Of a stretch of 64,000 nt of DNA, positions 7,557 to 64,000 are shown piece by piece. The DNA is from Bacilli bacterium (GTDB lineage: Bacteria; Bacillota_I; Bacilli_A; ML615J-28; CAG-313). The DNA lies in assembly GCA_017937305.1 (NCBI GenBank), contig JAGBDV010000020.1:57309-121308 (forward strand), in the 5' to 3' direction. The notes beneath the pieces were generated by a model. It had not been told where the DNA came from, ran no database searches, and saw only the letters and a program-made list of their open reading frames with translations. The number at the start of each line of letters is the position of its first letter. The stretch's first letter is position 1. The translations under genes were made by a program, and so were the position numbers.

Positions 7557-7568
7557 TTAAACAAATTA

Positions 7569-7609
7569 AAATGGTTAATGCGAAAGCATTAGCCATTTTC
7601 TTTTTTTTT
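7569..7609 (+). terminator. Rho-independent terminator: 12-bp stem with GAAA loop, then a T-run.
   Basis: aatggttaatgc-gaaa-gcattagccatt followed by ttcttttttttt, directly after the giant-gene stop. Confidence 0.8.
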
Positions 7610-7619
7610 AAATTATAAA

Positions 7620-7628
7620 GTGGTATAA
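7620..7628 (+). promoter_or_regulatory. Extended -10 (TGgTATAAT) promoter element upstream of map.
   Basis: tggtataat lies 27 bp before the map ATG. Similar TGaTATAAT boxes occur at 14240, 35206, 36624, 44092 and 46044. Confidence 0.45.
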
Positions 7629-7654
7629 TATATAAGATAAAAGAGGTGAATATA

Positions 7655-8479
7655 ATGAATGAAGCTTATGAAAAGATTAAAAATCGTTTATTAGAATATA
7701 AAAAGAAAAACTATATAGTTCCTACTGAAAAAATGATTAAAACAAAAGAACAAATTGAAGGAATTAAGGCTGCTGGTGTAATTAATACGGCAATTCTTGA
7801 TATGGTGGAAGAAAACATTAAAGCTGGAATGTCTACAGAAGATATTAATAAACTTGTTCATAATTTTACTATTTCTCATGGGGCTATTCCTGCTCCACTT
7901 AATTATGAAGGGTTTCCTAAAAGTGTGTGTGTATCTGTAAACGATTCAGTATGTCATGGAATTCCATCAAAAAAATTGATACTTAAAAATGGAGATATTG
8001 TAAATGTAGATGTTACTACAATTTATAAAGGTTATTATGCCGATGCATCAAGAATGTATATTATTGGTGAAGCAAAGGAAAATGCTAAAAAGTTAGTAAA
8101 AGTTACTAAAGAATGTTTAGAACTTGCTGTTAATGCAATAGTTCCATGGGAGACTAGACTTGGTGATCTAGGCGATATTATTCTTACCCATGCAAGAAAA
8201 AATGGATATAGTGTAGTTAGAGAAATTGGTGGTCATGGTGTAGGACTTGAAATGCATGAAGATCCATATGTTTCTCATGTAGGAAAAAAAGGGACTGGAA
8301 TGCTAATTGTACCGGGTATGGTATTTACTATTGAACCAATGGTAAATGAAGGAAGTAGATTAATTTATCAAGATAGTAGAAATGGTTGGACTATTTATAC
8401 TTATGATGGAAAGTTATCTGCACAGTGGGAGCATACTATTGTTGTAACAGAAGATGGTTGTGAAATTATAACTCATTAA
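7655..8479 (+). CDS. map: Methionine aminopeptidase type I.
   Basis: Full-length MetAP-I fold motifs are present (HGIP, DxVNVDV, EIGGHGVGLEMHEDP, FTIEPM). ATG 7655 has a GAGGTG RBS with 6-nt spacing; the tracked start at 7646 is a GTG inside the RBS. Confidence 0.9.
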   Translation: MNEAYEKIKNRLLEYKKKNYIVPTEKMIKTKEQIEGIKAAGVINTAILDMVEENIKAGMSTEDINKLVHNFTISHGAIPAPLNYEGFPKSVCVSVNDSVCHGIPSKKLILKNGDIVNVDVTTIYKGYYADASRMYIIGEAKENAKKLVKVTKECLELAVNAIVPWETRLGDLGDIILTHARKNGYSVVREIGGHGVGLEMHEDPYVSHVGKKGTGMLIVPGMVFTIEPMVNEGSRLIYQDSRNGWTIYTYDGKLSAQWEHTIVVTEDGCEIITH

Positions 8480-8498
8480 TTAAGAGGAGAATAGCTTT

Positions 8499-10253
8499 AT
8501 GAAAGAAATTTTACTAACATTTAAAAGACTAACATGGTTCTTTAAAGCAAATCTTAAAAATTATTTATTTTGTGCATTAGCACTATTATTTGTTTCTGTA
8601 ATGCCAGTAATCCCTACTAAGGTACTTGGTATTGCAATAGATGATATAGTTATGGGGAGTGTAACTATAGATAGAATAATTCTATACATTATGGGGTTAT
8701 TAGTAATTCCAGTATTTATATATTGTGTAAATATTTATTATCATTATACAATGAATAAACTAGGTCAAGATATTTCATATAAATTAAGAGAACAGTATCT
8801 TGAACATTTATTTGAACTGGACTCTTCAATTTATGAAAAATATACTAAAGGTGATTTAATAGCAAGAATATCAAATGATTTAACTACAGTAAGTGGCCTA
8901 GCAACATCTTTTTTGCAAAATGTTATTTATTATTTTGTCACTATTGTTGCTTCAATAACTATGATGGTAGTTATTAATCCTATTCTTTGTCTTGTATCCA
9001 TTGTATTTATGCCTTTTGCGATATTTATTTTAAATAATATCAGAAAGAGAAAAAGACAATATTATAAAAAACATCATGAAATTTATGGGGAAATGACAGA
9101 AAATGTTCTTGAATCCATCGAAAGTGCAAAAACAGTTAGAGCATATGGTATGGAAGAAGAAGACTATAAAAAGACTAAAACAGCAATTGATAATGATACT
9201 AACTCTTGGTGGTATATTCAAATGTTTGAGTCATTATTTGTACCAATGTTTGAACTTATTTATGCTGTAGCGTATTTTATTGCAATAGGATTAGGTACTT
9301 ACATGGTGATTAAATCTATCATATCTCCTGGTGATTTAGTTAGTTTCTTACTATATGTTGGAATGCTTTATGGTCCACTAATTGGTTTAAGTAATGTCTT
9401 AAACACAATTAGTAGCATTAATATTGCATCACAAAGATTCTTTGAAATTATGGATTTAGATACTGAAGTCCATGATGTTACAAATCCATTAAATATAATG
9501 AAATTTAATGAAATAAAATTTAAAGATGTAAACTTTAAATTTCCATTTGATGATTTTAACGTTTTATCCAATATTAATTTAACAATAAAAAGTGGTGAAA
9601 CAATAGGTATAGTTGGTCCTACTGGAAGTGGTAAATCTACTTTAATAAGACAATTATTAAGAGAATTTAATATTAGTAGTGGAACTATTTTGATTGATGA
9701 TATTCCAATTGAGAATTATAAGATAGATGACATTAGAATGATGGTAGGTTATGTTCCTCAAGAACATATTTTGTTTAGAAGAAGTGTTGATGATAATATT
9801 TTAATAGGTAATCCTAAAGCCTCACATGAAGAAATTGATAATGCAATGACAGTTGCAGATTTTAAAAAAGATTTAAATGAATTATCAAGTGGTGAACACA
9901 CTTTAGTAAGTGAACTAGGTGGATCTTTATCTGGTGGACAACGTCAAAGATTGTCAATAGCACGTGCTTTAGTAAAAGATCCTGAAATTTTAATTTTAGA
10001 TGATTCTTTAAGTGCTGTTGATGCATTAACTGAAACAAATATTATTAAACAATTAAAAGAAACAAGAGTAGGTAAGACTAATATTATTGTTGCACATTGT
10101 TTTAGTGCGATAGCTCTTGCAGATAAAATTATCGTTCTACAAGGTGGAAAAATAACCGATATAGGTACTCATCATGAATTATTAAAATATGATAACTGGT
10201 ATAAGATGCAATATCTTATTCAAATAAAAGGTGATAATCATGAAGAACTATAG
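8499..10253 (+). CDS. ABC transporter permease/ATP-binding protein (type I exporter, half-transporter).
   Basis: Six-TM N-terminal domain; Walker A GPTGSGKST; LSGGQRQR signature; Walker B ILILDD. Confidence 0.85.
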   Translation: MKEILLTFKRLTWFFKANLKNYLFCALALLFVSVMPVIPTKVLGIAIDDIVMGSVTIDRIILYIMGLLVIPVFIYCVNIYYHYTMNKLGQDISYKLREQYLEHLFELDSSIYEKYTKGDLIARISNDLTTVSGLATSFLQNVIYYFVTIVASITMMVVINPILCLVSIVFMPFAIFILNNIRKRKRQYYKKHHEIYGEMTENVLESIESAKTVRAYGMEEEDYKKTKTAIDNDTNSWWYIQMFESLFVPMFELIYAVAYFIAIGLGTYMVIKSIISPGDLVSFLLYVGMLYGPLIGLSNVLNTISSINIASQRFFEIMDLDTEVHDVTNPLNIMKFNEIKFKDVNFKFPFDDFNVLSNINLTIKSGETIGIVGPTGSGKSTLIRQLLREFNISSGTILIDDIPIENYKIDDIRMMVGYVPQEHILFRRSVDDNILIGNPKASHEEIDNAMTVADFKKDLNELSSGEHTLVSELGGSLSGGQRQRLSIARALVKDPEILILDDSLSAVDALTETNIIKQLKETRVGKTNIIVAHCFSAIALADKIIVLQGGKITDIGTHHELLKYDNWYKMQYLIQIKGDNHEEL

Positions 10254-12285
10254 AAGATTATTTAAATTTTTAAAGGGGAAAATGCATTGGTTTTTCATTA
10301 GCTTATTAATGATTATTATCATTCAGGCTCTAGCATTCGTTTCTCCACTTTTAGTTAAAACTGTTTTAGATGATTATATTTTGGGTATTGAATATGAATG
10401 GAAGCAAGTAGAGGAGAATGATGAATATACTGTTTCATATAATAATTTATTTTATAAACAAACTAGATTCATAGACGAAAATGACACTATAATTAAAGAT
10501 GTTAGTATTGTCCTTTATAAAAATGGTTTTTATTTTATTGATGATAAGGTAGTTGGTGGAAACAAAGAAATTAAAGAAGAAAATGACTTATTTATTTTAA
10601 ATACCTCATTTGATGGTAAGAATATTTCTTATGAAGCTATTAAATTAAACAAAGTTGAAGTGTTTGCATTTTATGAACCAGTAATACCTCACTTAGTGTT
10701 CTTTATAATAGTTATTTTTGTAAAAACTATTATTACAATAGTATGTGGCTTTATACAAGCATTCTCTATTAATAAGGTAGTTAACTATTTAGCTAACGAA
10801 GGAAGAACAAGAGCATTTAAAAATATTGAATTTTTACCAATTTCATATTTTGAAGAAGAACCTGCTGGGAAAATGGCAACAAGAATTACTAAAGATGTAG
10901 ATGGTATGATCATTATGTATCGTCAATTATTATTGCTATTTGCAACAGCTATCTTAAGTTTTATCCTTGCTTATGTAGGAATGTTTATTCTAAATTATAA
11001 ATTAGCTCTATTAACGTTTATAGCTTATCCAATAATATATTTATGGATTAGATTCTTCTTGAAGAAATTGAAGAATATCGCAGAAAGAGTAAATGAATCA
11101 AGAAGTTTACTTACTGCTAAAATAAACGAAATAATTAATGGTATTCAAATTTTACAAGTATTTAATTTTAAAAAGCAAACTGTTGATGAATTTAATCAAA
11201 TAAACGAAGACTACCGCAAAGAACAATTAAAAGAAGTAAAGCTTAGTACTACTCTTGGTTGGAATATGATTAATATTATGAGAGCATCTATAACAACATT
11301 AATTGTTGTGTATTTTGGAATTCAACATTTGAATGTTGCAGATGTGATTATTACGGCTGGATTAATATATGCCTATAATGATTATTTATCAAGAATTGTA
11401 GAACCAATTAATATTATTTTTACTCAAATTGGTGCATTTGAGCATTCACATGTTCAAGTAGATCGTATTCATAAAATTATTGAAGCTCCTATTGAAAATA
11501 AAGATAAAGAATTTATTGAAAGATATAAAGGAGATATAAAATTTGATAACGTATGGTTTAGTTATATTAAAGGCGAATATGTTTTAAAAGGTGTTACTAT
11601 TGATATTAAAGCAGGTCAAATGGTGGGTTTAGTTGGTCACACTGGTAGTGGAAAGAGCTCTATGATGAATTTATTACTAAGATTTTATGATATAACAGAT
11701 CCATTATCTGGAGCTATTTATGTAGATAATATGGATATTAGTAAGATTTCAAAAAGAACATATCGTTCTAATATTGGTATTGTTTTACAAGAACCTATTA
11801 TGTTAAAAGGTGATATTGCTTCAAATATTAGATTTGGCTTAGATAACATTAGTGATGAAGAGATAGTACGCGTCTTAACTGCTATGGGTGGGGACAAATT
11901 AATTAAAAAATTCCCTGATGGTATACATCAAGAACTTTCAAGAAAAGGTGTAAATATGAGTGCTGGAGAAAAACAAATTATTAGTTTAGCTCGCGCAATT
12001 ATTCGTAATCCATCTATTTTAATTATGGATGAAGCTACTTCACACATCGATACAGAGACGGAAAATATCATAAAGCAATCTTTGGAGTATGCGTGTAAAA
12101 ATAGAACTGTAATTGTAATTGCACATAGACTTTCTACCATTTATAATGCTGATAATATTATTGTTTTAGACCATGGAATTAAAGTAGAAGAAGGTAATCA
12201 TGACTCTTTAGTAAAACAAAATGGTGTTTACGCAAATATATATCGGTCTCAGGTTGCAAACATCAAAGATCTTAAGAATTTGTAA
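10240..12285 (+). CDS. ABC transporter permease/ATP-binding protein; heterodimer partner of the upstream exporter.
   Basis: GHTGSGKSS Walker A, MSAGEKQ signature, IMDEATS Walker B. Overlaps the upstream gene by 14 nt, implying translational coupling. ATG 10240 is preferred over GTG 10231. Confidence 0.85.
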   Translation: MKNYRRLFKFLKGKMHWFFISLLMIIIIQALAFVSPLLVKTVLDDYILGIEYEWKQVEENDEYTVSYNNLFYKQTRFIDENDTIIKDVSIVLYKNGFYFIDDKVVGGNKEIKEENDLFILNTSFDGKNISYEAIKLNKVEVFAFYEPVIPHLVFFIIVIFVKTIITIVCGFIQAFSINKVVNYLANEGRTRAFKNIEFLPISYFEEEPAGKMATRITKDVDGMIIMYRQLLLLFATAILSFILAYVGMFILNYKLALLTFIAYPIIYLWIRFFLKKLKNIAERVNESRSLLTAKINEIINGIQILQVFNFKKQTVDEFNQINEDYRKEQLKEVKLSTTLGWNMINIMRASITTLIVVYFGIQHLNVADVIITAGLIYAYNDYLSRIVEPINIIFTQIGAFEHSHVQVDRIHKIIEAPIENKDKEFIERYKGDIKFDNVWFSYIKGEYVLKGVTIDIKAGQMVGLVGHTGSGKSSMMNLLLRFYDITDPLSGAIYVDNMDISKISKRTYRSNIGIVLQEPIMLKGDIASNIRFGLDNISDEEIVRVLTAMGGDKLIKKFPDGIHQELSRKGVNMSAGEKQIISLARAIIRNPSILIMDEATSHIDTETENIIKQSLEYACKNRTVIVIAHRLSTIYNADNIIVLDHGIKVEEGNHDSLVKQNGVYANIYRSQVANIKDLKNL

Positions 12286-55466: not shown

Positions 55467-55509
55467 TAAAAAAAATTAAGTTCTAACTTACGTTAGAACT
55501 TATTTTTTT
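55467..55509. terminator. Bidirectional terminator between pyrE and the convergent DedA-like gene.
   Basis: A-run, then aagttctaac-ttac-gttagaactt, then T-run. Confidence 0.8.
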
Positions 55510-56257
55510 ATTTTAAATAGTTTTTTTAACCAATTACCAATTCTATTATATAAATTAACAAACCATTCTTGGATTTGATCTGCAAATTTATAAGAAATTA
55601 TAAATGCAATAATACCAAGTACTGATAATCCAGCAATTACTGCTATTCCCCATCCGTGTAGAGGAATTAGATTTCCACCATATACTAAAATTGTACAACC
55701 AATTGAAGTAATTCTAGTAAATATTTGAATAATACTAAATGTTTTAAATTTAATTTTAGAAATCCCTGCTACACTACAAAGTAAGTCATCTGGGAAAAAT
55801 GGGAATAAGAACATAAAGAATAATAGTACAGTTTCTCTACCTTTAATTTTTTCAAGGTATTCATCAACTTTTTCTTTATCTCCTGCAACCCAGTATACAA
55901 ACTTTTTACCAAGGATTCTACCTAGATAAAATCCAAGTGATCCTCCTAAGAACATTCCAATTAAAGAGTAGAAGAATGCTTCTAAGGGTTCAAATATTAG
56001 TGTGCCAGCAAGTATTGTAACCATTCCAGGAATTGGAATAAATGTTACTTGTAGGAATGATACTGCTATATACGCAAGAGGTGCCCAAATTCCTGCTTGA
56101 CTAACGATATCTCTAATTTCTTCTTTAGAAATATCTGTAAGGCCTAATGCTTTAAATAAAAAGTATAATCCGATAACTACTGCAATTAATATAATACCAG
56201 AAATTACAAGTTTTAGAATTGATTTTTTTGCTTCTTGACTAAGAGGTTTGATAATAT
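55500..56257 (-). CDS. TVP38/TMEM64 (DedA-like) family membrane protein; N-terminus extends upstream of the first ATG with no canonical start.
   Basis: The in-frame upstream translation (KPLSQEAKKSILKLVISGIILIAVVIGLYF...VTFIPIPG) is clearly family-like. Only ATT (56255) or ATC (56252) follow the AAAGGAG RBS (56266-56260). An A7 tract lies at 56223-56229. Confidence 0.6.
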
Positions 56258-56381
56258 CACTCCTTTAAAATTAACCATACATATTATATAATTTTTTTAT
56301 TAACTTTATGTTAATTTTGCACAACAAATTTAACTTTTTTTTAACATTTTATGATATAATATAATAAATGGAGGAAAAACA

Positions 56382-57149
56382 ATGATTGGTAAAAATTTTC
56401 CAAAAGAACATATAATTGGAACTAATAATTTTAGTCATTTATTTATCATTATATGTTTCTTTATTCTTTCAATAGTACTTTCATATAAACTTAGTAAAAA
56501 AGAAGAAAGAATAATAAATAGATATTTAATAATTAGCACAATATACTTAGTAATTACTGAAATTGTTAAAATGACTTATCGCTTTATTAAAGTAGGAACA
56601 TTTAGTCATGTCTTCCCAATGCCTTTTTGTTTCTTATGTATTCCTGCTTTAATAATGTATTTTATTAATAATGATAAAATAAAGTATATTGCACGTGTAT
56701 TTTTATGTAGTGGTAGTTTAATGGGAGGAAGCCTTTATATTTTTATTCCTAATGGATCTATTGATAAATATCCATTATATCATGTAAATGCTATCCATGG
56801 ATTATCATTTCATTTTATAATGGTTGTAATTGGTCTTACATTATTATTTAAAAGAATGTATGTTCCTAAATTAAAAGATTTTAAATACTATTTTATGTTT
56901 ATGGGAACTTTTAGTGTTATTGCGTTAATATGTAATTATTATTCAGGAGGTAACGCGCTTTTCTTTGGTAATGATAGTGGTATTCCTTTTTTAAAAAAAG
57001 TTATTGAAAAATCACATTTATTACATGTAATAATAGTATTTTTAGGTGAAAGTATTTTATTATTCTTTATATTTTATGCGATTTATTCATTAATTATGAA
57101 TATAAGATTAAAATATTTAATAAAAAAAGAAGAATTACAAAAGAGCTAG
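56382..57149 (+). CDS. Polytopic integral membrane protein (YwaF/TIGR02206-like), function unknown.
   Basis: Seven predicted TM helices. No catalytic motif recognised. Confidence 0.4.
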   Translation: MIGKNFPKEHIIGTNNFSHLFIIICFFILSIVLSYKLSKKEERIINRYLIISTIYLVITEIVKMTYRFIKVGTFSHVFPMPFCFLCIPALIMYFINNDKIKYIARVFLCSGSLMGGSLYIFIPNGSIDKYPLYHVNAIHGLSFHFIMVVIGLTLLFKRMYVPKLKDFKYYFMFMGTFSVIALICNYYSGGNALFFGNDSGIPFLKKVIEKSHLLHVIIVFLGESILLFFIFYAIYSLIMNIRLKYLIKKEELQKS

Positions 57150-57177
57150 AATTCAAATTTTTGAATTCTAGCTCTTA
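57141..57177. terminator. Bidirectional terminator (17-bp palindrome around an EcoRI-like core).
   Basis: aagagctagaattcaaa-ttt-ttgaattctagctctt. Confidence 0.8.
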
Positions 57178-58473
57178 TTCATTAAATAATAATGTAATTT
57201 CAAATGTAGTTTTTGTAACAGCATAGTCAAGTGTAATGTTATTTCTTTTTGCGAATAATTCAATAGATTTTGTACCAAAACCATGCTCTTCTTTATCATT
57301 TGTTGGTAAATTATTTGTATCAAAACTAATATTACCATCATATTTATTTTTAATTTGTAAAATTAAACGTCCATTATTGTTTAGGAAGATAAATGTAACA
57401 GCTCTATTGTTCTTAAGCTTAAGGGATGCATTAATTGCATTATCTAAACAGTTAGATATTACGACTACGATTTCATTAGATGGAATTGTAAGTAGTTCTT
57501 CGAAGTTATTAATTTTAGTCTTAAAATTAATATCATTATTAATACATTGTTGTTCATAGTATTCAAGTACTGAATTAATAAGTGGATCATTACAATATCT
57601 TTTTCGTTTTGTATTTTCAATAGAAACATTATATGAATTAATTAATTCTTGTGCTTGTTCTATTTCGCCATTATTAATAAGTGTTGAAATAGTAACTAAT
57701 ACATGTTTCATATCATGTCTTAAAATTCTAAGTTCATTATCACTTTGAGCTTTAAGTTCTGAAATTTCAATTATATTTTCTATTTGTTTATTTAAAATCT
57801 CTGTATCAAAATTATTAATTAATTCTTTTTGATAACTTTTTAAAAACATATAAAATCCAGTAATTGAAACTGTATATACGCTTAATAATGCAAGACTAAA
57901 GATATTAATTTTAAGTACATTTTGTGTTGTAGTACTTATAATATTTTGGTATAGGCCAATTTCAGCAAACATTGCAACACCATAAAGAAGAAGAAGCCAT
58001 AACATTTTAGGAAGTGATGATTCAACAATATTATGTAGTTTATTATAGAAGAAATTTAAATATATAGCTGCTAAAGGGAAACAAGTAACATAGATAATCC
58101 CTCTATATAATATAGCGTTATCAGCAAACTTTAGACCAACTGCTTCAATTAATACAACAAAATATGTAAGTAAAAAGGCATTAACTATTCCTGTAAATAA
58201 AGATAATCCTTTTCTTTTTCCAATTATAAATACTAATAGTGCTTCAGGTATAAAAATACCTAAAATATTCCAAATTAATACTTTTTCAAGTTTGAAAAAT
58301 TCAAATATGTATGAATTAATGATTAGTATTGCAAGAGTAATTGGAATAACAAGTAATAATGTTTTAATTTTAGAAAATCTACTACCTGATACAATTAGTA
58401 ATAATAACATACTAAATGCAGCAGTAATTAATGTTGGAATTAACTCAAATATCTGTGTCATATTATTCACCAA
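57175..58473 (-). CDS. Sensor histidine kinase, AgrC/HPK10-like (polytopic N-terminal sensor + GHKL ATPase).
   Basis: About six N-terminal TM helices. H-box LRHDMKHVL. N-box/G-box region NCLDNAINAS ... GFGTKS. Confidence 0.75.
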   Translation of the reverse strand: MVNNMTQIFELIPTLITAAFSMLLLLIVSGSRFSKIKTLLLVIPITLAILIINSYIFEFFKLEKVLIWNILGIFIPEALLVFIIGKRKGLSLFTGIVNAFLLTYFVVLIEAVGLKFADNAILYRGIIYVTCFPLAAIYLNFFYNKLHNIVESSLPKMLWLLLLYGVAMFAEIGLYQNIISTTTQNVLKINIFSLALLSVYTVSITGFYMFLKSYQKELINNFDTEILNKQIENIIEISELKAQSDNELRILRHDMKHVLVTISTLINNGEIEQAQELINSYNVSIENTKRKRYCNDPLINSVLEYYEQQCINNDINFKTKINNFEELLTIPSNEIVVVISNCLDNAINASLKLKNNRAVTFIFLNNNGRLILQIKNKYDGNISFDTNNLPTNDKEEHGFGTKSIELFAKRNNITLDYAVTKTTFEITLLFNE

Positions 58474-59194
58474 TTAAATACTTTATGTATTCTTTCTTAA
58501 TACTTGAAAAATTTCTTTTTGCAATAGGAACGACAAAACCATTTTTCATTATAAATGATCCATCTTCAATTGCTTTTACATGATTCATATTAACAATAAA
58601 TGAGGCATGACAACTAATAAAATTATAGTTTTCATAATTAAATGGAATAGAATCTAAAAACTTAGTTCTAAGTGCCGTAGATGTAATAGATTCACCAGTA
58701 ATTAAGTGAATTACAATACGACGATCTATTGATTCAATAAAACATACTTCATTTATTTCAATAGATAAAATATTAAGTGTTTGTGTCTTAAAATTAAATG
58801 TATTTTTAGTACGATAATTAAAATTAATTGATAAATCATCAAGTACTGCATTCATTTGTTCTTCTGCAATAGGTTTAATCAAATAATGGTACGCTTTAAC
58901 AGTAAAAGCATCTACTGCAAATTCAGAAGAAGTTGTTGTAAAAATTATTACAGCATCAGGAGACACTTCTCTTATTTTTCTAGCAGTTTCAATACCATTT
59001 ATTTGCATGATTACATCAAGAAAATAAATATCAAACCCTGTATTATTAGGAAGATTTATTAATCTAATTAAATTAGCAGGATTATCAAAACAACTAATAT
59101 CTACATTAACTTGTACTTTTTGATAGTATGAAGAAACTAACTTTTTAGTATTCTCAAGTTCTAATAAACTATCATCACATATAGCTATTCGCAT
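58463..59194 (-). CDS. Response regulator, LytTR DNA-binding family (AgrA/ComE-like).
   Basis: REC domain (IAICDDS..., DVIMQINGIE, IIFTT) plus C-terminal LytTR domain (FIESIDRRIVIHL...SCHASFIVNMNHV). Confidence 0.8.
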   Translation of the reverse strand: MRIAICDDSLLELENTKKLVSSYYQKVQVNVDISCFDNPANLIRLINLPNNTGFDIYFLDVIMQINGIETARKIREVSPDAVIIFTTTSSEFAVDAFTVKAYHYLIKPIAEEQMNAVLDDLSINFNYRTKNTFNFKTQTLNILSIEINEVCFIESIDRRIVIHLITGESITSTALRTKFLDSIPFNYENYNFISCHASFIVNMNHVKAIEDGSFIMKNGFVVPIAKRNFSSIKKEYIKYLIGE

Positions 59195-59341
59195 AAGTAT
59201 TACCTCTTTTTCTACTTATATTATACCACTATTTTTAATATTAGTCAAATTGTAAATAAATAATAAATTAAATCAAAAAAAGTAAAAAAAGATAACCTAA
59301 AAAGGAAAAAATTGTTAATTAATTTACAAAATAATTTTCAT

Positions 59342-59371
59342 ATTTTCACATTTAAATGTCGAATTTTCACA
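59342..59371 (+). promoter_or_regulatory. LytTR-type operator: two perfect 9-bp direct repeats ATTTTCACA separated by exactly 12 bp, plus a third imperfect copy (ATTTTCATA, 59334-59342).
   Basis: Repeat 1 at 59342-59350, repeat 2 at 59363-59371. Ends 5 bp before the -35 of the downstream promoter. Confidence 0.7.
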
Positions 59372-59376
59372 CCAAA

Positions 59377-59405
59377 TTGACTATTAAGTACTAATTTGTT
59401 ATAAT
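59377..59405 (+). promoter_or_regulatory. Near-consensus sigma-A promoter: TTGACT, 17 bp, TATAAT.
   Basis: -35 at 59377-59382 and -10 at 59400-59405. Drives the 59480.. operon. Divergent from the LytTR regulator gene. Confidence 0.65.
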
Positions 59406-59479
59406 ATGAAAGTAAAGTGAGAAGAGTATACACATCTATCACTTTTTAAAACTTAAACTAATATAAAGGAGAAATTATT

Positions 59480-60247
59480 ATGAAAAGAAAAAGTTTAACA
59501 ATGATTCTATGTTTATTAACTTGCTTATCATTAGTAGGCGTAGGGTTCGCGTCTTGGGTTATTAGCTCAGGCGATAAAGAAACTGTATCGGGAAATGTTG
59601 TTGTAGATACTGTTTCGGATGAACGTATTGTTCTTACAGTTACTGAACCAGGTGTTAAGGATATTAAATTTGTTGGTCCATCATCTACAACTACTGCAGA
59701 TGGTTGGTTAACTACTGATAATAAAGCAGCTAACTTAGAAGTTACTTATGCTTGTACAGTTTCTAAAAAGACTGGTTCGTTTACATCTACTAGCGAAATT
59801 GCAACACCTTTAGCCACTTTAGTAGAACCTACAGAGAGTACATATACTACTGCTAAAACAAAAGGTTGTTTTGAATTGTCAACAGATGTTGGTGTTACTG
59901 CAGCTACATTAGATAAATTCTATCAAGGTATTAAAATTTCTACACCTACTCTTGAAGATGGCAAAATCAAGTTTAACGTGACAGTTCAATATAAATGGGG
60001 TTCTGAATTCGGTGGAATTAATCCGTTTGATTATTACAATGAATTAAAAACTGGTGTAAATCCTACATTTGTTAGAGACGTTAATGCAACATGTGGAGAA
60101 GCTGTAGATACAATTTCAGCTGAAGACGCTACTTGGGGAGATCATGCTTATTATTATTTAGATTTATTATCAAAATTAGATAGTAATGGTGCTACAGAAG
60201 GTGGTTTATTAAGTTATAGTTTAACTATTCAAGTTGACTTTGCTTAA
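59480..60247 (+). CDS. Secreted TasA-sized protein (255 aa) with SipW-cognate-like signal peptide; paralog 1.
   Basis: MKRK-hydrophobic-GVGFASWVISSGD (the TasA family has GGTWAAFND). Ser/Thr/Val-rich beta-region. C-terminal KWGSEFGGINPFDYYNE is shared with the next gene. Confidence 0.6.
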   Translation: MKRKSLTMILCLLTCLSLVGVGFASWVISSGDKETVSGNVVVDTVSDERIVLTVTEPGVKDIKFVGPSSTTTADGWLTTDNKAANLEVTYACTVSKKTGSFTSTSEIATPLATLVEPTESTYTTAKTKGCFELSTDVGVTAATLDKFYQGIKISTPTLEDGKIKFNVTVQYKWGSEFGGINPFDYYNELKTGVNPTFVRDVNATCGEAVDTISAEDATWGDHAYYYLDLLSKLDSNGATEGGLLSYSLTIQVDFA

Positions 60248-60285
60248 TAGTTATTTATAAAAATAATTTAGGAGGCTAGAAAATT

Positions 60286-61062
60286 ATGGCTAGATTAACA
60301 AAGAATTCTTATAAGAGAAAGATTATATTATTTGGTTTATTAGTTTTCATGTCTATCGCATTAATTTCTACAGGTTTTGCTGCATGGGTTATGTCAACTA
60401 ATGCAACAAATGATGATGCTAATGGAAATGTTTCTGTTGGTGTTGTTAAAGATGCAAGTTTAACAATTTCTAATGTTGTTATTTCATCTACTGAAAAGAG
60501 CTTTAGATTTGAACCTTTAGCTTCAGATGAATCAGGTCGTGTAAGATATGATGATGAAGAAGGTTTATATGAAAACTTAAGCATTACTGTTACAGGTCAA
60601 GTTGCACCTATTGAATATTTAGGTGAATTAAAGTATGAACTTGTTATTCCTGAATCTGTTAAGAAAGCTGCTGATGCTGGTTACATTGTTTTACCAGATT
60701 CTGCTACTTATCAATATCAAGATGGTGAAGGAAACACTGTTAAAGTTGGCAGTGGTACAGTACTTGCTGTTAGCGGAACTGAAGGTACATTTAATTTCAC
60801 ATTTACAATTGATTTTAAATGGGGTGCTAAATTTGGCAATATGAACCCTGGTTTATACTATGATACTGATGCTGCTGGAATGTTGATTTCAGATGCAGAA
60901 TGTAAGAAAGAATTACAAGATTTTAGAGCATTATTATATGGTTATGATGCAGAAATGACTGCTGCTGGTAGTGATGAAGCAGCTAGAGATACTGTTGCAG
61001 AAAATCATAAGAATGATGCTGGTCCAGTATTTACAGTATTAATTACAGCTAAGAGTAACTAA
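60286..61062 (+). CDS. Secreted TasA-sized protein (258 aa) with SipW-cognate-like signal peptide; paralog 2.
   Basis: ...STGFAAWVMSTNA, GNVSVGVVKDASLTI (paralog 1 has GNVVVDTVSDERIVLTV) and KWGAKFGNMNPGLYYDTD. Confidence 0.6.
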   Translation: MARLTKNSYKRKIILFGLLVFMSIALISTGFAAWVMSTNATNDDANGNVSVGVVKDASLTISNVVISSTEKSFRFEPLASDESGRVRYDDEEGLYENLSITVTGQVAPIEYLGELKYELVIPESVKKAADAGYIVLPDSATYQYQDGEGNTVKVGSGTVLAVSGTEGTFNFTFTIDFKWGAKFGNMNPGLYYDTDAAGMLISDAECKKELQDFRALLYGYDAEMTAAGSDEAARDTVAENHKNDAGPVFTVLITAKSN

Positions 61063-61074
61063 TAACTTATAGTT

Positions 61075-62079
61075 ATGAAGTCTACAGAAATTATTTCGCT
61101 CATAGTTACTTTCATTGGGATATTTAGTTTTGCTACTATATTTACAATTTTATATGGTAATTATGCATCAATGTCAATTAAAGAATTAAAGTCTGGTAAA
61201 CGTGACATTGAATTGATTGATGAAGTAGTCTATGAAAGACAAGAAAAAGTTAAAAGACGTAATGAAATAGTTGTTACTATTAAAAATGTGTTCTTTTATT
61301 TAACTTTATTTATTGTTGTACCTGTTTTTATCTTTTCACTTATTAGTAGATTTACTAATAATGCAATAATGATAGGTGATAGAACAGTTATGGTTGTCGC
61401 ATCTGGTTCAATGAGTTATAAAGCTGAAACTAATGATTATTTAGTAACTAATAACTTAAACGATCAATTTTCAAAATATGATATTATTATTCTAGAAAAA
61501 GTTGACAGTGCGGCTGAACTTAAAGTTTATGACACTATTGCTTTTGTAAATGATAAAGGTACAAATATCATTCATAGAATTAAGTCAATTAAATATGATG
61601 GAAGTTATGAAACTAGAGGCGATGCTGTAGAAGTAAGTGATAGTTATAATCCTGTTTTTCCTGATGTTATCGGAAGATATACAGGAAAAAAGATTGGTGG
61701 TATAGGAATGTTTGTTTTATTCTTCCAATCTTATGCGGGGATTATTACAATTGTTTCACTTGTTTATTGTTTATTAATGATTGATCGAATGTCTGAGAAA
61801 ATAAACAAGGTACAATTAGAAAGAATTGAGTACTTAGAAAAAGCTTTAGGTTTACTTGATGAAACTGAAGCTAAAGCTATGCAAGCTGCTTATTCTGAAA
61901 CTATTTATTATAAAGGTTTTGCTTATCAATTTAAAGATGGTGAATTCATCTCTAAAGATGAAATTAAGGATAGCCTTTATTTAGAAAAGTCTTCAAATAC
62001 AATTATTAAAGAAGTTACAAGTGGTGACTCTTGTGTTATTGAAGAAGAAATAATCAAAAATGACGAACAGGGAGAATAG
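61075..62079 (+). CDS. Signal peptidase I, SipW (archaeal/ER) type, with two extra N-terminal TM helices and a C-terminal TM plus coiled-coil extension.
   Basis: VVASGSMS (Ser motif), IIILEK, NIIHRIKS (His motif), RGDAVE. Confidence 0.7.
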   Translation: MKSTEIISLIVTFIGIFSFATIFTILYGNYASMSIKELKSGKRDIELIDEVVYERQEKVKRRNEIVVTIKNVFFYLTLFIVVPVFIFSLISRFTNNAIMIGDRTVMVVASGSMSYKAETNDYLVTNNLNDQFSKYDIIILEKVDSAAELKVYDTIAFVNDKGTNIIHRIKSIKYDGSYETRGDAVEVSDSYNPVFPDVIGRYTGKKIGGIGMFVLFFQSYAGIITIVSLVYCLLMIDRMSEKINKVQLERIEYLEKALGLLDETEAKAMQAAYSETIYYKGFAYQFKDGEFISKDEIKDSLYLEKSSNTIIKEVTSGDSCVIEEEIIKNDEQGE

Positions 62080-62083
62080 TGTT

Positions 62084-63883
62084 ATGAAAAAACCCTATTA
62101 TACAAGAAAAGATTTGATTGTTATCTCTTTAGCTGTATTCTATGCATTTGTTTTAATCTTTGTTGGAATGTGTTTAGAAGGAACATATTCATTCGTTAGT
62201 AGTAAAAATCCAATTGCTGCAATGGGTAAAGGATTAAGTTTCAAAACAATAGAATGTGGATTATCTGGATTTATTTGCTTAGTACTTGTTGCATTATATG
62301 TTGCAGTATTTACAGCAGTATTCATGTATGAAAGAAGATATGCAATCGTAACTAACAAGAAAACTTATGGAATTAAGATGATTATTACTTACATCTTATC
62401 ATTCCTTGCATGTGGTGTTATTTCTTTAGGTGTTGGTATTTTAATTCAAAAACCACTTACATGGGATAATATCAGTCTTGTATTATTATATGTTGGTCAA
62501 TCTTTAATTCTAACTACAATTATTTATGTTGTATTATTTGCTTTATTTGGTGGTGTAATTATGTTTGTTGTCAATTTCTTATTAATTGATAAACCATTTA
62601 AAGCATTTGAAGATAATACAGAAATTAAAGTATTAGAAGAAGATGATCCTGAAGTTGATATTACAAGTAGTTTTGATGCAAATATTGATGGTGCTACTGC
62701 TACTGGTGGTGTTGCTGCTGCTGGGGCTCCTGGTGCTGCAGGTGCATCTGAAAGTATCGTTCGTTCTGCTGAAGAACTTGACGATCGTGAAAAAGTATTC
62801 CCAGCACTTTCTACAGTTGATGTAGATTATGATGGGTATGTAGTTGATCATATCGAAAGTGAACAATTCTCTTTAGAAGAAATTTGTGTTAAGTTTAGAA
62901 ATTATCTTGCTAAAGAAGAAAAATTATACTTTGATATTGATACAATTCGTTATTTTATCAGTGCTTTAGGTACTTCTCACTTTATGATTTTAGAAGGCTT
63001 ATCTGGTACTGGTAAATCAAGTTTACCACGTTATTTTGCTAAATTTATTAATGCTGAAGTATTATTTATTCCAGTTCAAGCAACTTGGCGTGATAAGACT
63101 AACCTTATTGGTTTCTTTAATGAATTCTCTAAGACTTATACTGAAAGTGAATTCTTAATTAAACTATATAAAGCTAATTACAACCCTGATGTTCCTCATT
63201 TCTTCGTACTAGATGAAATGAACATCTCGCGTGTTGAATATTACTTTGCAGATTTCCTATCAGTTCTTGAATATCCAGAAGAAGATTGGAAATTAAAGAT
63301 TATGCAATTACCATATAACTTTATTCCACCTGCAAAATTAGAAGAAGGTATTATTCAAATACCTAATAACTCATATTTTGTTGGTACAGCTAATAAGGAT
63401 GACTCAACATTCACTATTACTGATAAAGTATATGACCGTGCTATTTCAATCGATTTTGATAATCGTAATGATGCATTTACTGTAAATGAAGAAGTATCAA
63501 CAATTACTATTAGTAATTCACATCTTCAATCACTATATAATGCAGCTAAGAATGAAGATGCTAACCGTATGAATGATGCTGATTATGCTAAATTCACTAA
63601 GATTACTGATTATATTTATGATCAATTTGATCTTACATTCGGTAACCGTATCTTAACACAAATTGACAACCTAGTGCCTATTTTTGTGGCATGTGGTGGT
63701 ACAAAAGAAGATGCTTTAGACTTCTTATTATCACGTAAAGTTATTTATAAACTAGAAGGTCGTTTTGAAGAATATGTTAAAGGTGCTTTAAAAGAACTTC
63801 TTGCTTTAATTGAAAAGACTTACGGTGCATCTGTTTTAAAACGTAGTGAAAAGACTATTAAAAGTTTAATGAGAAGGTTGTAA
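62084..63883 (+). CDS. Membrane-anchored McrB-family (AAA_5) AAA+ NTPase: ~5 TM N-terminal domain, Gly/Ala-rich linker, C-terminal McrB-like domain.
   Basis: Walker A GLSGTGKSS. Walker B/McrB motif FFVLDEMNISRVEYYFADFLSVLE (E. coli McrB has IIDEINRANLSKVFGEVMMLME). YFVGTANKDDSTFTITDKVYDRAISIDF matches McrB YIIGLMNTADRS...RRRFSF. ATG 62084 with GGGAGAA RBS. Confidence 0.65.
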   Translation: MKKPYYTRKDLIVISLAVFYAFVLIFVGMCLEGTYSFVSSKNPIAAMGKGLSFKTIECGLSGFICLVLVALYVAVFTAVFMYERRYAIVTNKKTYGIKMIITYILSFLACGVISLGVGILIQKPLTWDNISLVLLYVGQSLILTTIIYVVLFALFGGVIMFVVNFLLIDKPFKAFEDNTEIKVLEEDDPEVDITSSFDANIDGATATGGVAAAGAPGAAGASESIVRSAEELDDREKVFPALSTVDVDYDGYVVDHIESEQFSLEEICVKFRNYLAKEEKLYFDIDTIRYFISALGTSHFMILEGLSGTGKSSLPRYFAKFINAEVLFIPVQATWRDKTNLIGFFNEFSKTYTESEFLIKLYKANYNPDVPHFFVLDEMNISRVEYYFADFLSVLEYPEEDWKLKIMQLPYNFIPPAKLEEGIIQIPNNSYFVGTANKDDSTFTITDKVYDRAISIDFDNRNDAFTVNEEVSTITISNSHLQSLYNAAKNEDANRMNDADYAKFTKITDYIYDQFDLTFGNRILTQIDNLVPIFVACGGTKEDALDFLLSRKVIYKLEGRFEEYVKGALKELLALIEKTYGASVLKRSEKTIKSLMRRL

Positions 63884-63887
63884 TAAT

Positions 63888-64000
63888 ATGAAAATCATCG
63901 AAGAAAACAAACTAAAAGAAATTATCCAAATTATTAATGATTATCATAATGATAATAAAAAGATAAAAAAATTCTTTAATAATTTAGATTCACTTACATT
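63888..64000 (+). CDS. 5' end of the next ORF (partial); possible partner of the McrB-like gene.
   Basis: ATG 5 nt after the preceding stop; MKIIEENKLKEIIQIINDYHNDN... runs to the window edge. Confidence 0.3.
   Translation, partial: MKIIEENKLKEIIQIINDYHNDNKKIKKFFNNLDSLT

What the first reader, a model, noticed from the sequence alone, without database searches (positions are those of the whole stretch)
62084..63883. McrB-family AAA+ domain fused to an N-terminal polytopic membrane domain
The C-terminal ~350 aa carry the McrB/AAA_5 hallmarks: Walker A GLSGTGKSS, the hhhDEMN-type Walker B followed by the ISRVEYYFADFLSVLE helix, and VGTANKDDS...DRAISIDF. The N-terminal 190 aa form ~5 TM helices. 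The two parts are joined by a Gly/Ala-rich low-complexity linker (TATGGVAAAGAPGAAGASE). McrB-like motors are normally soluble partners of McrC nucleases in restriction or defence. A membrane-embedded version encoded next to a signal peptidase and secreted proteins suggests a different role, such as energising export or assembly, or a membrane-associated defence sensor.
Basis: partly seen in the sequence, partly recalled or inferred. Interest (0 to 1): 0.7.

Follow-up and report, generated by a model that had tools for sequence, protein, structure and literature searches.

The report
Membrane-anchored McrB-like GTPase in pilus-type operon
A motor protein of the kind that normally drives DNA restriction (McrB) is here anchored in the membrane, paired with a nuclease-less McrC partner, and locked into a 9-10 gene operon with a dedicated signal peptidase, its secreted substrates and an ABC transporter in many gut Firmicutes, which suggests it was recruited to build or export a cell-surface structure.

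Summary
Window 62084..63883 (+) encodes a 599-aa protein with a polytopic membrane domain, a disordered Gly/Ala linker and a McrB-type AAA+ module (Walker A, Walker B, GTAN-K-D-DS). The model and hydropathy give four TM helices, not five, which puts both termini in the cytoplasm.

In 80 species-level genomes (45-72% identity) the gene sits in a near-invariant operon: secreted GFA|SW proteins, SipW-like peptidase, TM-McrB, McrC-like, ABC ATPase, 10-12-TM permease, ~820-aa signal-anchored protein, Flg_new lipoprotein.

The GTPase belongs to the NxD clade of Bell et al. 2024. They briefly named SipW-linked relatives with an FtsB-like anchor "CoCoPALM". Our 4-TM form is a separate clade without coiled coils. 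In one CoCoPALM-type locus the McrC partner is fused to a SipW peptidase. Soluble coiled-coil relatives lack SipW and sit in defence-like contexts.

Best reading: a GTP-driven membrane module coupled to SipW-dependent maturation or assembly of surface proteins. The function is inferred, not shown. It is a new variant of a computationally known, uncharacterised kind.

The parts
59377..59405 (+). Promoter-like site (TTGACT-17-TATAAT with TG) about 75 nt upstream of the first secreted-protein gene. It is the likely operon promoter.
   Evidence: 11 of 12 consensus match. No terminator-like site was found in 59000-64000. This is a consensus match only.
59480..60247 (+). Secreted protein 'secA' (255 aa). 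It has an N-terminal hydrophobic helix ending in the GFA|SW motif and is the presumed SipW substrate and filament subunit. Its fold is unknown.
   Evidence: G22-F23-x-x-W26 is nearly invariant in 64 paralogs/orthologs. The motif occurs only twice in the 64-kb window. No Pfam or PDB sequence match.
60286..61062 (+). Secreted protein 'secB' (258 aa), a paralog with a GFA|AW motif.
   Evidence: present upstream of sipW in 70 of 71 loci.
61075..62079 (+). SipW-like (ER/archaeal-type) signal peptidase I, 334 aa. It has an extra N-terminal TM helix, a cytoplasmic loop (30-63) and a 95-aa cytoplasmic C-terminal tail.
   Evidence: NF046067 SipW E 1.7e-11; TIGR02228 42.3 bits, below its cutoff of 51.85. 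S112-M-S114, H167-R168, D183 and D189 conserved in 79 species. TM segments 3-29, 64-95, 209-240.
62084..63883 (+). The finding: a 599-aa membrane-anchored McrB-like (NxD-clade) GTPase/AAA+ protein.
62105..62584 (+). Four-helix transmembrane domain (residues 8-167).
   Evidence: Conserved polar residues T7, R8, N42, Y103, N164 and P171 (numbering shifted by 8 in that output).
62585..62797 (+). Disordered acidic and Gly/Ala-rich linker (residues 168-238).
   Evidence: pLDDT about 27-46. Sequence read.
62873..63877 (+). AAA+ core (residues 264-460) plus C-terminal helical lid (478-598). Walker A is at 62996-63022, Walker B at 63200-63217 and the NxD motif at 63392-63400.
63889..64000 (+). First 37 codons of the McrC-like partner. 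It is cut by the window end; the full 418 aa are at L001:11805-13061. It comprises DUF2357, a variable beta domain and a CxxC...CxxC zinc ribbon, with no nuclease triad.

Best explanation
The gene encodes the membrane-anchored NTPase subunit of a McrBC-derived two-protein module. That module has lost its DNA-cleaving function. It has become a fixed component of a SipW-dependent cell-surface protein (probably filament/pilus-like) biogenesis operon.

Proposed mechanism:
1. Four or more operon-encoded proteins (secA, secB, secC and a protein of over 1189 aa) are inserted by Sec with an N-terminal hydrophobic helix ending in GF(A/S)|(S/A)W.
2. The dedicated SipW-like peptidase cleaves them. It carries about 130 extra cytoplasmic residues.
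3. The McrB-like protein forms a ring, by analogy with McrB hexamers. The ring is tethered under the membrane by its 4-TM domains through about 70-residue flexible linkers.
4. The nuclease-less McrC-like partner plugs into the ring and stimulates GTP hydrolysis. Its invariant R82 lies in a loop and would act like the McrC Arg/Lys that contacts the Nx(x)D aspartate.
5. The nucleotide cycle is transmitted through the TM domain and/or the SipW tail. It gates or powers processing, extraction and polymerisation or export of the substrates. This works together with the co-encoded ABC transporter, a signal-anchored ~820-aa protein with beta-helix-like sequence repeats, and a lipoprotein.

Shown: domain composition, motifs, 4-TM topology model, absence of conserved nuclease residues, operon invariance, and the McrC-SipW fusion in the sister clade.

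Inferred: oligomeric state, GTP use, physical contacts, cleavage site, and the filament nature of the substrates.
For: Identity:
- NxD-type motif GTAN-x-D-(D/E)-S in essentially all of the 150 closest representatives.
- McrB is the best PDB sequence hit.

Loss of restriction function:
- No DNA-binding N-domain; a TM domain stands in its place.
- The partner has no conserved residue between 226 and 374 in 81 species.
- The partner has no nuclease fold match and no PADLOC hit.

Operon coupling in 80 species genomes:
- sipW upstream in 72 of 74 loci.
- McrC-like downstream in 77 of 78.
- ABC ATPase 76 of 77, permease 72 of 73, ~820-aa protein 65 of 66, Flg_new lipoprotein 62 of 63.
- The flanks differ between lineages.
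- Gaps between genes are 3-40 nt and no terminator was found.

Substrates:
- The GF(A/S)(S/A)W motif is nearly invariant.
- It also starts the downstream giant protein.
- The aromatic P2' residue is the hallmark of the TasA/SipW cleavage site (PMC10269814).

Sister clade with an FtsB-like anchor (= CoCoPALM):
- SipW lies directly upstream, and there are secreted TFAWF proteins and an EAL protein.
- In L089 the DUF2357 partner is fused to a complete SipW domain: TIGR02228 87.1 bits against a cutoff of 51.85.

Soluble relatives:
- Coiled-coil relatives without a TM domain have no SipW in 0 of 8 loci and sit with vWA/kinase/PP2C genes.

Mobile elements:
- The full-length architecture is absent from 72,556 plasmids and 50,697 phages.
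- Only one distant hit was found in 2.9 million viral contigs.
Against: - There is no experimental datum for any member.
- The secreted proteins show no detectable sequence similarity to TasA/camelysin: 0 of 64 match Peptidase_M73, and no PDB hit is credible. Their fold was not predicted, so 'filament subunit' is an assumption.
- TasA-type fibres assemble without an NTPase, so a motor is not obviously required.
- A sub-clade of 4-TM McrB-like proteins occurs as a two-gene module with a GNAT-fused partner and no SipW. The module's core activity may therefore be more general than pilus assembly.
- The McrB assignment of the AAA+ fold is not specific at structure level. Foldseek gives dynein, MCM, RavA and NorQ first.
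- The closest PADLOC model is a (untested) defence candidate.
Confidence: 0.5

Rival explanations
1. The McrBC-like pair serves envelope or glycan/lipid export rather than protein-filament assembly. It would act as a GTP-dependent regulator or chaperone, in the manner of a MoxR protein, for the adjacent ABC transporter or another envelope-modifying enzyme. The SipW substrates would be cargo or accessory proteins.
For: - An ABC ATPase and a 10-12-TM permease follow the pair in 76 of 77 and 72 of 73 loci.
- In sub-clade a2 the partner is fused to a GNAT acetyltransferase and sits beside galE and a Wzy_C-like protein, without SipW.
- The closest structural neighbours of the AAA+ model include the MoxR-type chaperones RavA, NorQ and CbbQ.
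Against: - SipW is the immediate upstream neighbour in both membrane-anchored clades and is even fused to the partner in L089.
- The FtsB-like sister clade has no ABC transporter in the loci examined.
- The partner is DUF2357 (McrC-type), not a vWA/MoxR-type adaptor.
Confidence: 0.2
2. It is a membrane-associated anti-phage or abortive-infection system derived from type IV restriction. The TM domain would sense envelope perturbation or pilus-dependent phage entry, and the GTPase would trigger a toxic response.
For: - The family descends from McrBC.
- There is a strong match to PADLOC PDC-M26A (E 2.4e-43).
- Soluble relatives lie in defence-like contexts and on 287 plasmids.
- The ABC ATPase resembles defence ABC ATPases in PADLOC, e.g. 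mad3 at E 2.8e-24. This similarity is generic to the ABC fold.
Against: - No effector was found: no nuclease, and the partner has no PADLOC hit.
- The invariant 9-gene operon across 80 species is unlike shuffling defence islands.
- No R-M or other defence genes are adjacent.
- The full-length form is absent from plasmids and phages.
- PDC systems are untested candidates.
Confidence: 0.12
3. It has a cell-division or cell-shape role. The GTPase would be a membrane scaffold related to the FtsB-fused relatives and would act at the septum.
For: Bell et al. 2024 describe the sister clade's anchor as FtsB-like. Many carriers are labelled Acholeplasmatales/Anaeroplasmataceae or Mollicutes. From general knowledge such lineages can be wall-less; this was not tested here.
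Against: - Our protein has no FtsB-like single TM plus coiled coil.
- No division genes are in the operon.
- The operon is dominated by secreted or surface proteins.
Confidence: 0.05

Closest known systems
[quoted passage not shown] They are known only from a one-paragraph computational mention.
   Same: - NxD-variant McrB-like GTPase: N-K-D followed by a second D, as the paper describes for the clade.
- A DUF2357 McrC-like partner.
- Membrane anchoring.
- Tight association with SipW-type signal peptidases and proteins carrying SipW-type signal peptides.
   Different: - The anchor is a 4-helix polytopic domain joined by a disordered linker, not an FtsB-like single TM plus coiled coil.
- No long coiled coil appears in either protein.
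- The AAA+ domains form a separate clade.
- The operon additionally fixes an ABC transporter, a ~820-aa signal-anchored protein and a Flg_new lipoprotein.
- The partner is short (418 aa) and ends in a zinc ribbon.
Canonical McrBC type IV restriction enzyme (E. coli McrB/McrC; PDB 6hz4, 6ut6)
   Same: - AAA+ core with Walker A/B and the Nx(x)D signature. It is the best PDB sequence hit.
- A two-gene arrangement with a DUF2357 partner immediately downstream.
- The partner fold is closest to McrC.
   Different: - No N-terminal DNA-binding domain.
- No PD-(D/E)xK nuclease.
- NxD instead of NxxD.
- Membrane-embedded.
- Not next to R-M genes.
CoCoNuT / PADLOC PDC-M26-type soluble coiled-coil McrB-like GTPases
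   Same: The GTPase module is shared at about 40% identity (PADLOC E 2.4e-43). The NxD motif is shared.
   Different: These proteins have a 400-470-aa coiled-coil N-terminus and no TM domain. They have larger McrC homologs, neighbours of vWA/Ser-Thr kinase/PP2C type, and no SipW.
tapA-sipW-tasA (B. subtilis) and sipW-bsaA-bsaB-bsaC (C. perfringens) matrix-fibre operons
   Same: - A dedicated ER/archaeal-type SipW peptidase is encoded with several paralogous secreted substrates.
- The cleavage sites have an aromatic P2' residue.
   Different: - Those operons contain no NTPase, no McrC-like protein and no ABC transporter.
- Our substrates have no detectable Peptidase_M73/TasA sequence similarity.
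- Our SipW carries an extra TM helix and long cytoplasmic segments.
Type IV pilus / type II secretion assembly core (prepilin peptidase PilD, hexameric ATPase PilB, platform PilC). This is a functional analogy only.
   Same: The logic is the same. A dedicated peptidase cleaves a conserved motif at the end of an N-terminal hydrophobic helix shared by major and minor subunits. A ring NTPase is coupled to a polytopic membrane platform.
   Different: There is no homology. The NTPase is AAA+/McrB-type rather than PilB/GspE-type. The peptidase is a Ser/His signal peptidase I rather than an aspartic prepilin peptidase. The analogy is untested.

Membership tests
McrB-family (GTPase-type) AAA+ | Walker A GxxGxGK[ST] and Walker B hhhhDE | tested here: met
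   GLSGTGKSS (305-313) and FFVLDE (373-378) are read from the sequence. They are conserved in at least 97% of sequences from 80 species.
McrB-family (GTPase-type) AAA+ | Nx(x)D signature at the sensor-1 position | tested here: met
   N437-K-D439-D440 aligns with the NTAD of E. coli McrB. GTAN-x-D-(D/E)-S is present in essentially all of the 150 closest representatives.
McrB-family (GTPase-type) AAA+ | Significant sequence or profile match to McrB/AAA_5 | tested here: inconclusive
   Pfam AAA_5 scores 19.0 bits, below the gathering score of 22. PDB McrB is hit at E 1.2e-3. Foldseek ranks other AAA+ proteins (dynein, MCM, RavA) first. The strong hit is only to PADLOC PDC-M26A.
McrB-family (GTPase-type) AAA+ | Cognate McrC partner with a DUF2357 N-terminal domain encoded adjacently | tested here: met
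McrB-family (GTPase-type) AAA+ | GTP binding/hydrolysis and hexamer formation | not testable with these tools
   This needs biochemistry or multimer modelling.
McrBC type IV restriction system | N-terminal DNA (modified-base) binding domain on McrB | tested here: not met
   The N-terminus is a 4-TM domain plus a disordered linker.
McrBC type IV restriction system | PD-(D/E)xK nuclease domain with a catalytic triad in McrC | tested here: not met
   No column in residues 226-374 is at least 90% conserved in 81 species. There is no Pfam nuclease hit. No Foldseek hit reaches E<0.29.
CoCoPALM (Bell et al. 2024) | NxD (shortened) GTPase motif, usually followed by D/E | tested here: met
   The motif is N437-K-D439-D440.
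CoCoPALM (Bell et al. 2024) | Association with signal-peptidase-family proteins | tested here: met
   sipW-like lies upstream in 72 of 74 genome loci and in 16 of 22 metagenome class-a loci.
CoCoPALM (Bell et al. 2024) | GTPase fused to an FtsB-like domain (single TM plus coiled coil) | tested here: not met
   There are four TM helices and then a disordered linker; no coiled coil follows the membrane domain. FtsB-like relatives form a different clade.
CoCoPALM (Bell et al. 2024) | [quoted passage not shown] | tested here: not met
   The AF2 models show no long coiled coil. The longest soluble helix has 26 residues in the partner and about 20 in the GTPase. No dedicated coiled-coil predictor was run.
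SipW/TasA-type fibre operon | ER/archaeal-type signal peptidase I (Ser/His) encoded in the operon | tested here: met
   NF046067 SipW E 1.7e-11; TIGR02228 E 6.5e-11, though its 42.3 bits are below the cutoff of 51.85. The SMS, HR and D residues are conserved.
SipW/TasA-type fibre operon | Substrates of the TasA/camelysin (Peptidase_M73) jelly-roll family | tested here: not met
   By sequence, 0 of 64 members match PF12389. The profile finds no TasA in PDB. Only the signal-peptide region aligns with the sister-clade substrates.

The most novel reading that the evidence does not exclude
The McrB-like ring with its central nuclease-less McrC 'shaft', anchored by 24 TM helices and docked to a SipW peptidase, is the motor of a previously unrecognised class of nucleotide-driven surface-filament assembly machinery. 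It would be unrelated to type IV pilus, chaperone-usher or sortase systems. It operates in many uncultured gut Firmicutes (MAGs labelled Bacilli, Acholeplasmatales/Anaeroplasmataceae, Christensenellaceae and Clostridia). It would be a clear case of a restriction-enzyme translocase being exapted for protein or envelope biogenesis.
Probability: 0.3. Interest if true: 0.85.

Novelty: new variant of a known kind. Interest (0 to 1): 0.62.

Why it matters
McrBC is a textbook DNA-restriction motor. Here the same two-protein module has lost DNA binding and nuclease activity. It is embedded in the membrane and fixed in a large, strongly conserved surface-protein operon.

At least 578 stretches in the species-genome collection encode a relative of the GTPase (any of the three architectures). 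All 80 best loci carry this operon, and they come mostly from uncultured human and animal gut bacteria.

If the module powers or gates SipW-dependent assembly, two things would follow:
- It would add a new energy-coupled route for building Gram-positive or wall-less cell appendages.
- It would give function to about ten 'hypothetical' genes common in gut MAGs.

It also gives a concrete, testable example for the 'CoCoPALM' idea, which the literature only mentions in passing. The Rosetta-stone fusion of McrC and SipW and the GNAT-fused sub-clade show where to look.

Full report
1. THE OBSERVATION

Window 62084..63883 (+) is an intact ORF of 599 codons. Its ATG lies 5 nt after the stop of the preceding gene and is preceded by GGGAGA. 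The identical protein (P0001, 'Bacilli bacterium' MAG) is called on 14 public contigs.

- Walker A GLSGTGKSS (residues 305-313).
- Walker B FFVLDE (373-378), followed by MNISRVEYYFADFLSVLE.
- VGTANKDDS (433-441).
- DRAISIDF (451-458).
- The linker TATGGVAAAGAPGAAGASE (203-221).

Single-sequence family evidence is weak. Pfam AAA_5 gives E 1.4e-3, below threshold. The best PDB sequence match is E. coli McrB at E 1.2e-3 over residues 281-457. The PADLOC model PDC-M26A matches at E 2.4e-43. PDC models are untested candidates predicted by 'guilt by embedding'.

Hydropathy and an AlphaFold2 model (pLDDT about 80-88 in this region) show four TM helices, not five: 8-31, 59-89, 97-120 and a long helix 127-167. 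The K/R-rich N-terminus and loop 80-96 would be cytoplasmic, so the AAA+ module is also cytoplasmic. Residues 164-238 are disordered (pLDDT about 30). The AAA+ core is 264-460 and a helical lid is 478-598.

2. THE NEXT GENE

The window ends 37 codons into the next ORF (63889..). On the 227-kb contig that carries the identical gene (L001) it encodes 418 aa.

Evidence that it is McrC-like:
- It passes the Pfam threshold for DUF2357, the McrC N-terminal domain (28.7 bits against 23.3).
- An AlphaFold2 model from 41 homologs has pLDDT 82.

Evidence that it is not a nuclease:
- Across 81 species the conserved positions are in the helical domain (R82 in a low-confidence loop, W104, P113-E114, D123, Y128-E129-N130, T209-N-I-L212) and in a C-terminal CxxC...CxxC zinc ribbon.
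- Nothing is conserved between residues 226 and 374.
- Foldseek finds no nuclease-like fold.
- PADLOC has no hit.

So the partner is McrC-like but nuclease-less.

3. THE OPERON

Three lineages at 100%, 72% and 66% identity share a gene string but have different flanks.

A scan of one genome per species found at least 578 matched stretches encoding a relative. The best 80 loci are all full-length at 45-72% identity. They come from gut and rumen MAGs labelled Bacilli, Acholeplasmatales/Anaeroplasmataceae, 'Staphylococcus sp. CAG:324', Coprobacillus, Ca. Scatosoma, Ca. Enteromonas, Christensenellaceae, Clostridia and Oscillospiraceae.

I searched these loci with HMMs built from the three reference loci and counted only where the contig leaves room:

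| Gene | Position relative to the GTPase | Loci with it |
|---|---|---|
| secB-type secreted protein | upstream | 70 of 71 |
| SipW-like peptidase | upstream | 72 of 74 |
| McrC-like partner | immediately downstream | 77 of 78 |
| ABC ATPase | downstream | 76 of 77 |
| 10-12-TM permease | downstream | 72 of 73 |
| ~820-aa signal-anchored protein | downstream | 65 of 66 |
| Flg_new lipoprotein | downstream | 62 of 63 |
| All nine genes | | 46 of 53 |

In the two sipW exceptions, sipW is displaced within the same locus.

In the window, a strong promoter-like site precedes the first gene and no terminator-like site occurs up to the window end.

Secreted proteins:
- They share a nearly invariant G-F-(A/S)-(S/A)-W at the end of the N-terminal hydrophobic helix.
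- The same motif opens a third paralog and the protein of over 1189 aa at the operon end.
- In the 64-kb window the motif occurs only in these two genes.
- Small residues at -3 and -1 and an aromatic residue at P2' are what distinguishes the TasA site cleaved by SipW (PMC10269814, seen).

The peptidase:
- It matches SipW/archaeal-type models: E 1.7e-11 and 6.5e-11, though below the curated cutoffs.
- It keeps the Ser/His/Asp residues.
- It is unusual in having a third TM helix and about 130 cytoplasmic residues.

4. PLACE IN THE FAMILY

An exhaustive search of one representative per 50%-identity cluster gives 8131 relatives at E<=1e-3 and 727 at E<=1e-30. Essentially all of the 150 closest carry GTAN-x-D-(D/E)-S. 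This is the NxD variant that Bell et al. 2024 use to define a major branch of McrB GTPases.

Three N-terminal architectures appear, and on an NJ tree of the AAA+ domain they form three nearly pure clades.

(a) Four TM helices (46 representatives, including ours).

(b) One or two TM helices plus a short coiled coil (FtsB-like).
- In three class-b loci SipW lies immediately upstream (TIGR02228 54.9 and 70.6 bits in L088 and L090; 88.5 bits in L089; all above the cutoff of 51.85).
- The partner has DUF2357 in two of the three loci (L088, L089); the L090 partner has no Pfam hit.
- Several secreted proteins have a TFAWF motif. EAL-domain genes and giant Flg_new proteins are nearby.
- This matches the CoCoPALM description.
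- In one locus (L089) the 977-aa DUF2357 partner carries a complete SipW peptidase at residues 763-948 (TIGR02228 87.1 bits). In L090 the same peptidase is a separate gene directly after the partner.
- This fusion is the strongest indication that the McrC-like protein and SipW act together.

(c) No TM helix, with a 400-470-residue coiled coil.
- The neighbours are vWA, Ser/Thr kinase, PP2C and two large proteins. No SipW is present (0 of 8 loci).
- AAA+-only relatives, never the full-length form, occur on 287 plasmids.

Within class (a) there is also a sub-clade without SipW. It is a two-gene module whose partner is DUF2357 plus a GNAT acetyltransferase, next to galE and a Wzy_C-like membrane protein.

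The full-length membrane form was not found on plasmids or phages. It is nearly absent from 2.9 million viral contigs.

5. MECHANISM

Shown:
- A McrB-type NTPase with intact catalytic motifs, tethered to the membrane.
- A McrC-type partner with an invariant arginine in a flexible loop, but no nuclease.
- Obligate co-occurrence with a SipW peptidase and its presumptive substrates.
- A domain fusion of partner and peptidase in the sister clade.

Inferred, from the established McrBC structures (Niu et al. 2020 and Nirwan et al. 2019, as summarised):
- The NTPase forms a hexamer.
- The partner's N-terminal domain inserts into the ring and stimulates GTP hydrolysis through the Nx(x)D aspartate.

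My best explanation (confidence about 0.5) is that this cycle is coupled, through the 4-TM domain and/or the cytoplasmic parts of SipW, to processing, membrane extraction and polymerisation or export of the GFA|SW proteins. In logic this resembles the peptidase/ATPase/platform core of type IV pili.

Main weaknesses:
- The fold of the substrates is unknown. No TasA similarity is detectable by sequence.
- TasA fibres need no motor.
- The GNAT sub-clade suggests a more general envelope role.

Rivals:
- A regulator or chaperone of the ABC transporter or of envelope modification (0.2).
- A membrane defence sensor (0.12).
- A division role (0.05).

6. COMPARISON AND NOVELTY

It works like, and descends from, McrBC. 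It fails two defining features of a restriction system: DNA-binding domain and nuclease.

It shares the NxD motif and the signal-peptidase link with CoCoPALM. It fails the FtsB-like anchor and coiled-coil features and forms its own clade.

No paper in the searchable library other than Bell et al. links McrB to signal peptidases. That paper defers CoCoPALM to a 'forthcoming publication'.

I therefore rate it a new variant of a computationally known, experimentally uncharacterised kind. Interest is 0.62. A specialist would be intrigued but not astonished, and the system is now well enough delimited to be tested directly.

A loose lead, not tested here: the Pyrobaculum TasA-like pilus operon also encodes a predicted GTPase and three 4-TM proteins (PMC9245690).

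Noticed in passing
L089:12181-15114: In a class-b (FtsB-like anchor) locus from a Ruminococcus sp. MAG, the 977-aa DUF2357 (McrC-like) protein is fused to a complete SipW-type signal peptidase I (residues 763-948, TIGR02228 87.1 bits). In L090 the same peptidase is a separate gene right after the partner.
   Followed up: yes
L109:6444-12389 and L164:6603-12181 (also L103:7350-10419): A sub-clade of 4-TM McrB-like proteins (548-852 aa) forms a two-gene module without SipW. In L109 and L164 the partner (1047-1123 aa) combines DUF2357 with a GNAT acetyltransferase domain. These two loci lie next to galE-like genes, and a Wzy_C-like membrane protein was found in L109.
   Followed up: partly
L091-L094, L101, L102 (about 300-12000 in each): Soluble coiled-coil relatives (720-790 aa) sit in a conserved string: vWA protein, Ser/Thr-kinase-like protein, PP2C-like phosphatase, a ~1060-aa protein, a ~500-aa protein, McrB-like, then McrC-like (590-790 aa). 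The context looks defence-like and may correspond to PADLOC PDC-M26. The neighbour assignments (vWA, kinase, PP2C) were read from N-terminal sequence only; no family search was run on them.
   Followed up: partly
L001:19721-21800 (downstream of the window): The giant protein (over 1189 aa) at the end of the operon starts with the same signal motif (…TIGFSSWII) as the small secreted proteins. It could be a tip adhesin or minor subunit processed by the same peptidase.
   Followed up: partly
window 57175-59194 (-): A LytTR-type two-component system (HATPase_c_5 histidine kinase of 428-432 aa plus a Response_reg/LytTR regulator of 243 aa) is transcribed divergently from the operon. It has its own strong promoter-like site at 59248-59220. 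It is not conserved next to the operon in other lineages, so it may be a lineage-specific regulator.
   Followed up: partly
window 60-7556 (+): A very large ORF (2498 aa) at the start of the window. Its N-terminal sequence shows Ig-like (Big_2-type) repeats, so it is probably another surface protein. It has no GFA|SW motif at its start.
   Followed up: no
window 55500-57149: Two small polytopic membrane proteins lie between the pyrimidine operon and the two-component system. One is VTT/DedA-like (174 aa, minus strand) and one is TMEM164-like (255 aa). The Pfam assignments come from the identical contig L001.
   Followed up: no
window 61075-62079 (+): The SipW-like peptidase is about 145 aa longer than B. 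subtilis SipW (about 190 aa). It has an extra N-terminal TM helix, a charged cytoplasmic loop (30-63) and a conserved 95-aa cytoplasmic tail (R250, L254, Y284). This is unusual for a signal peptidase and suggests a docking surface.
   Followed up: partly
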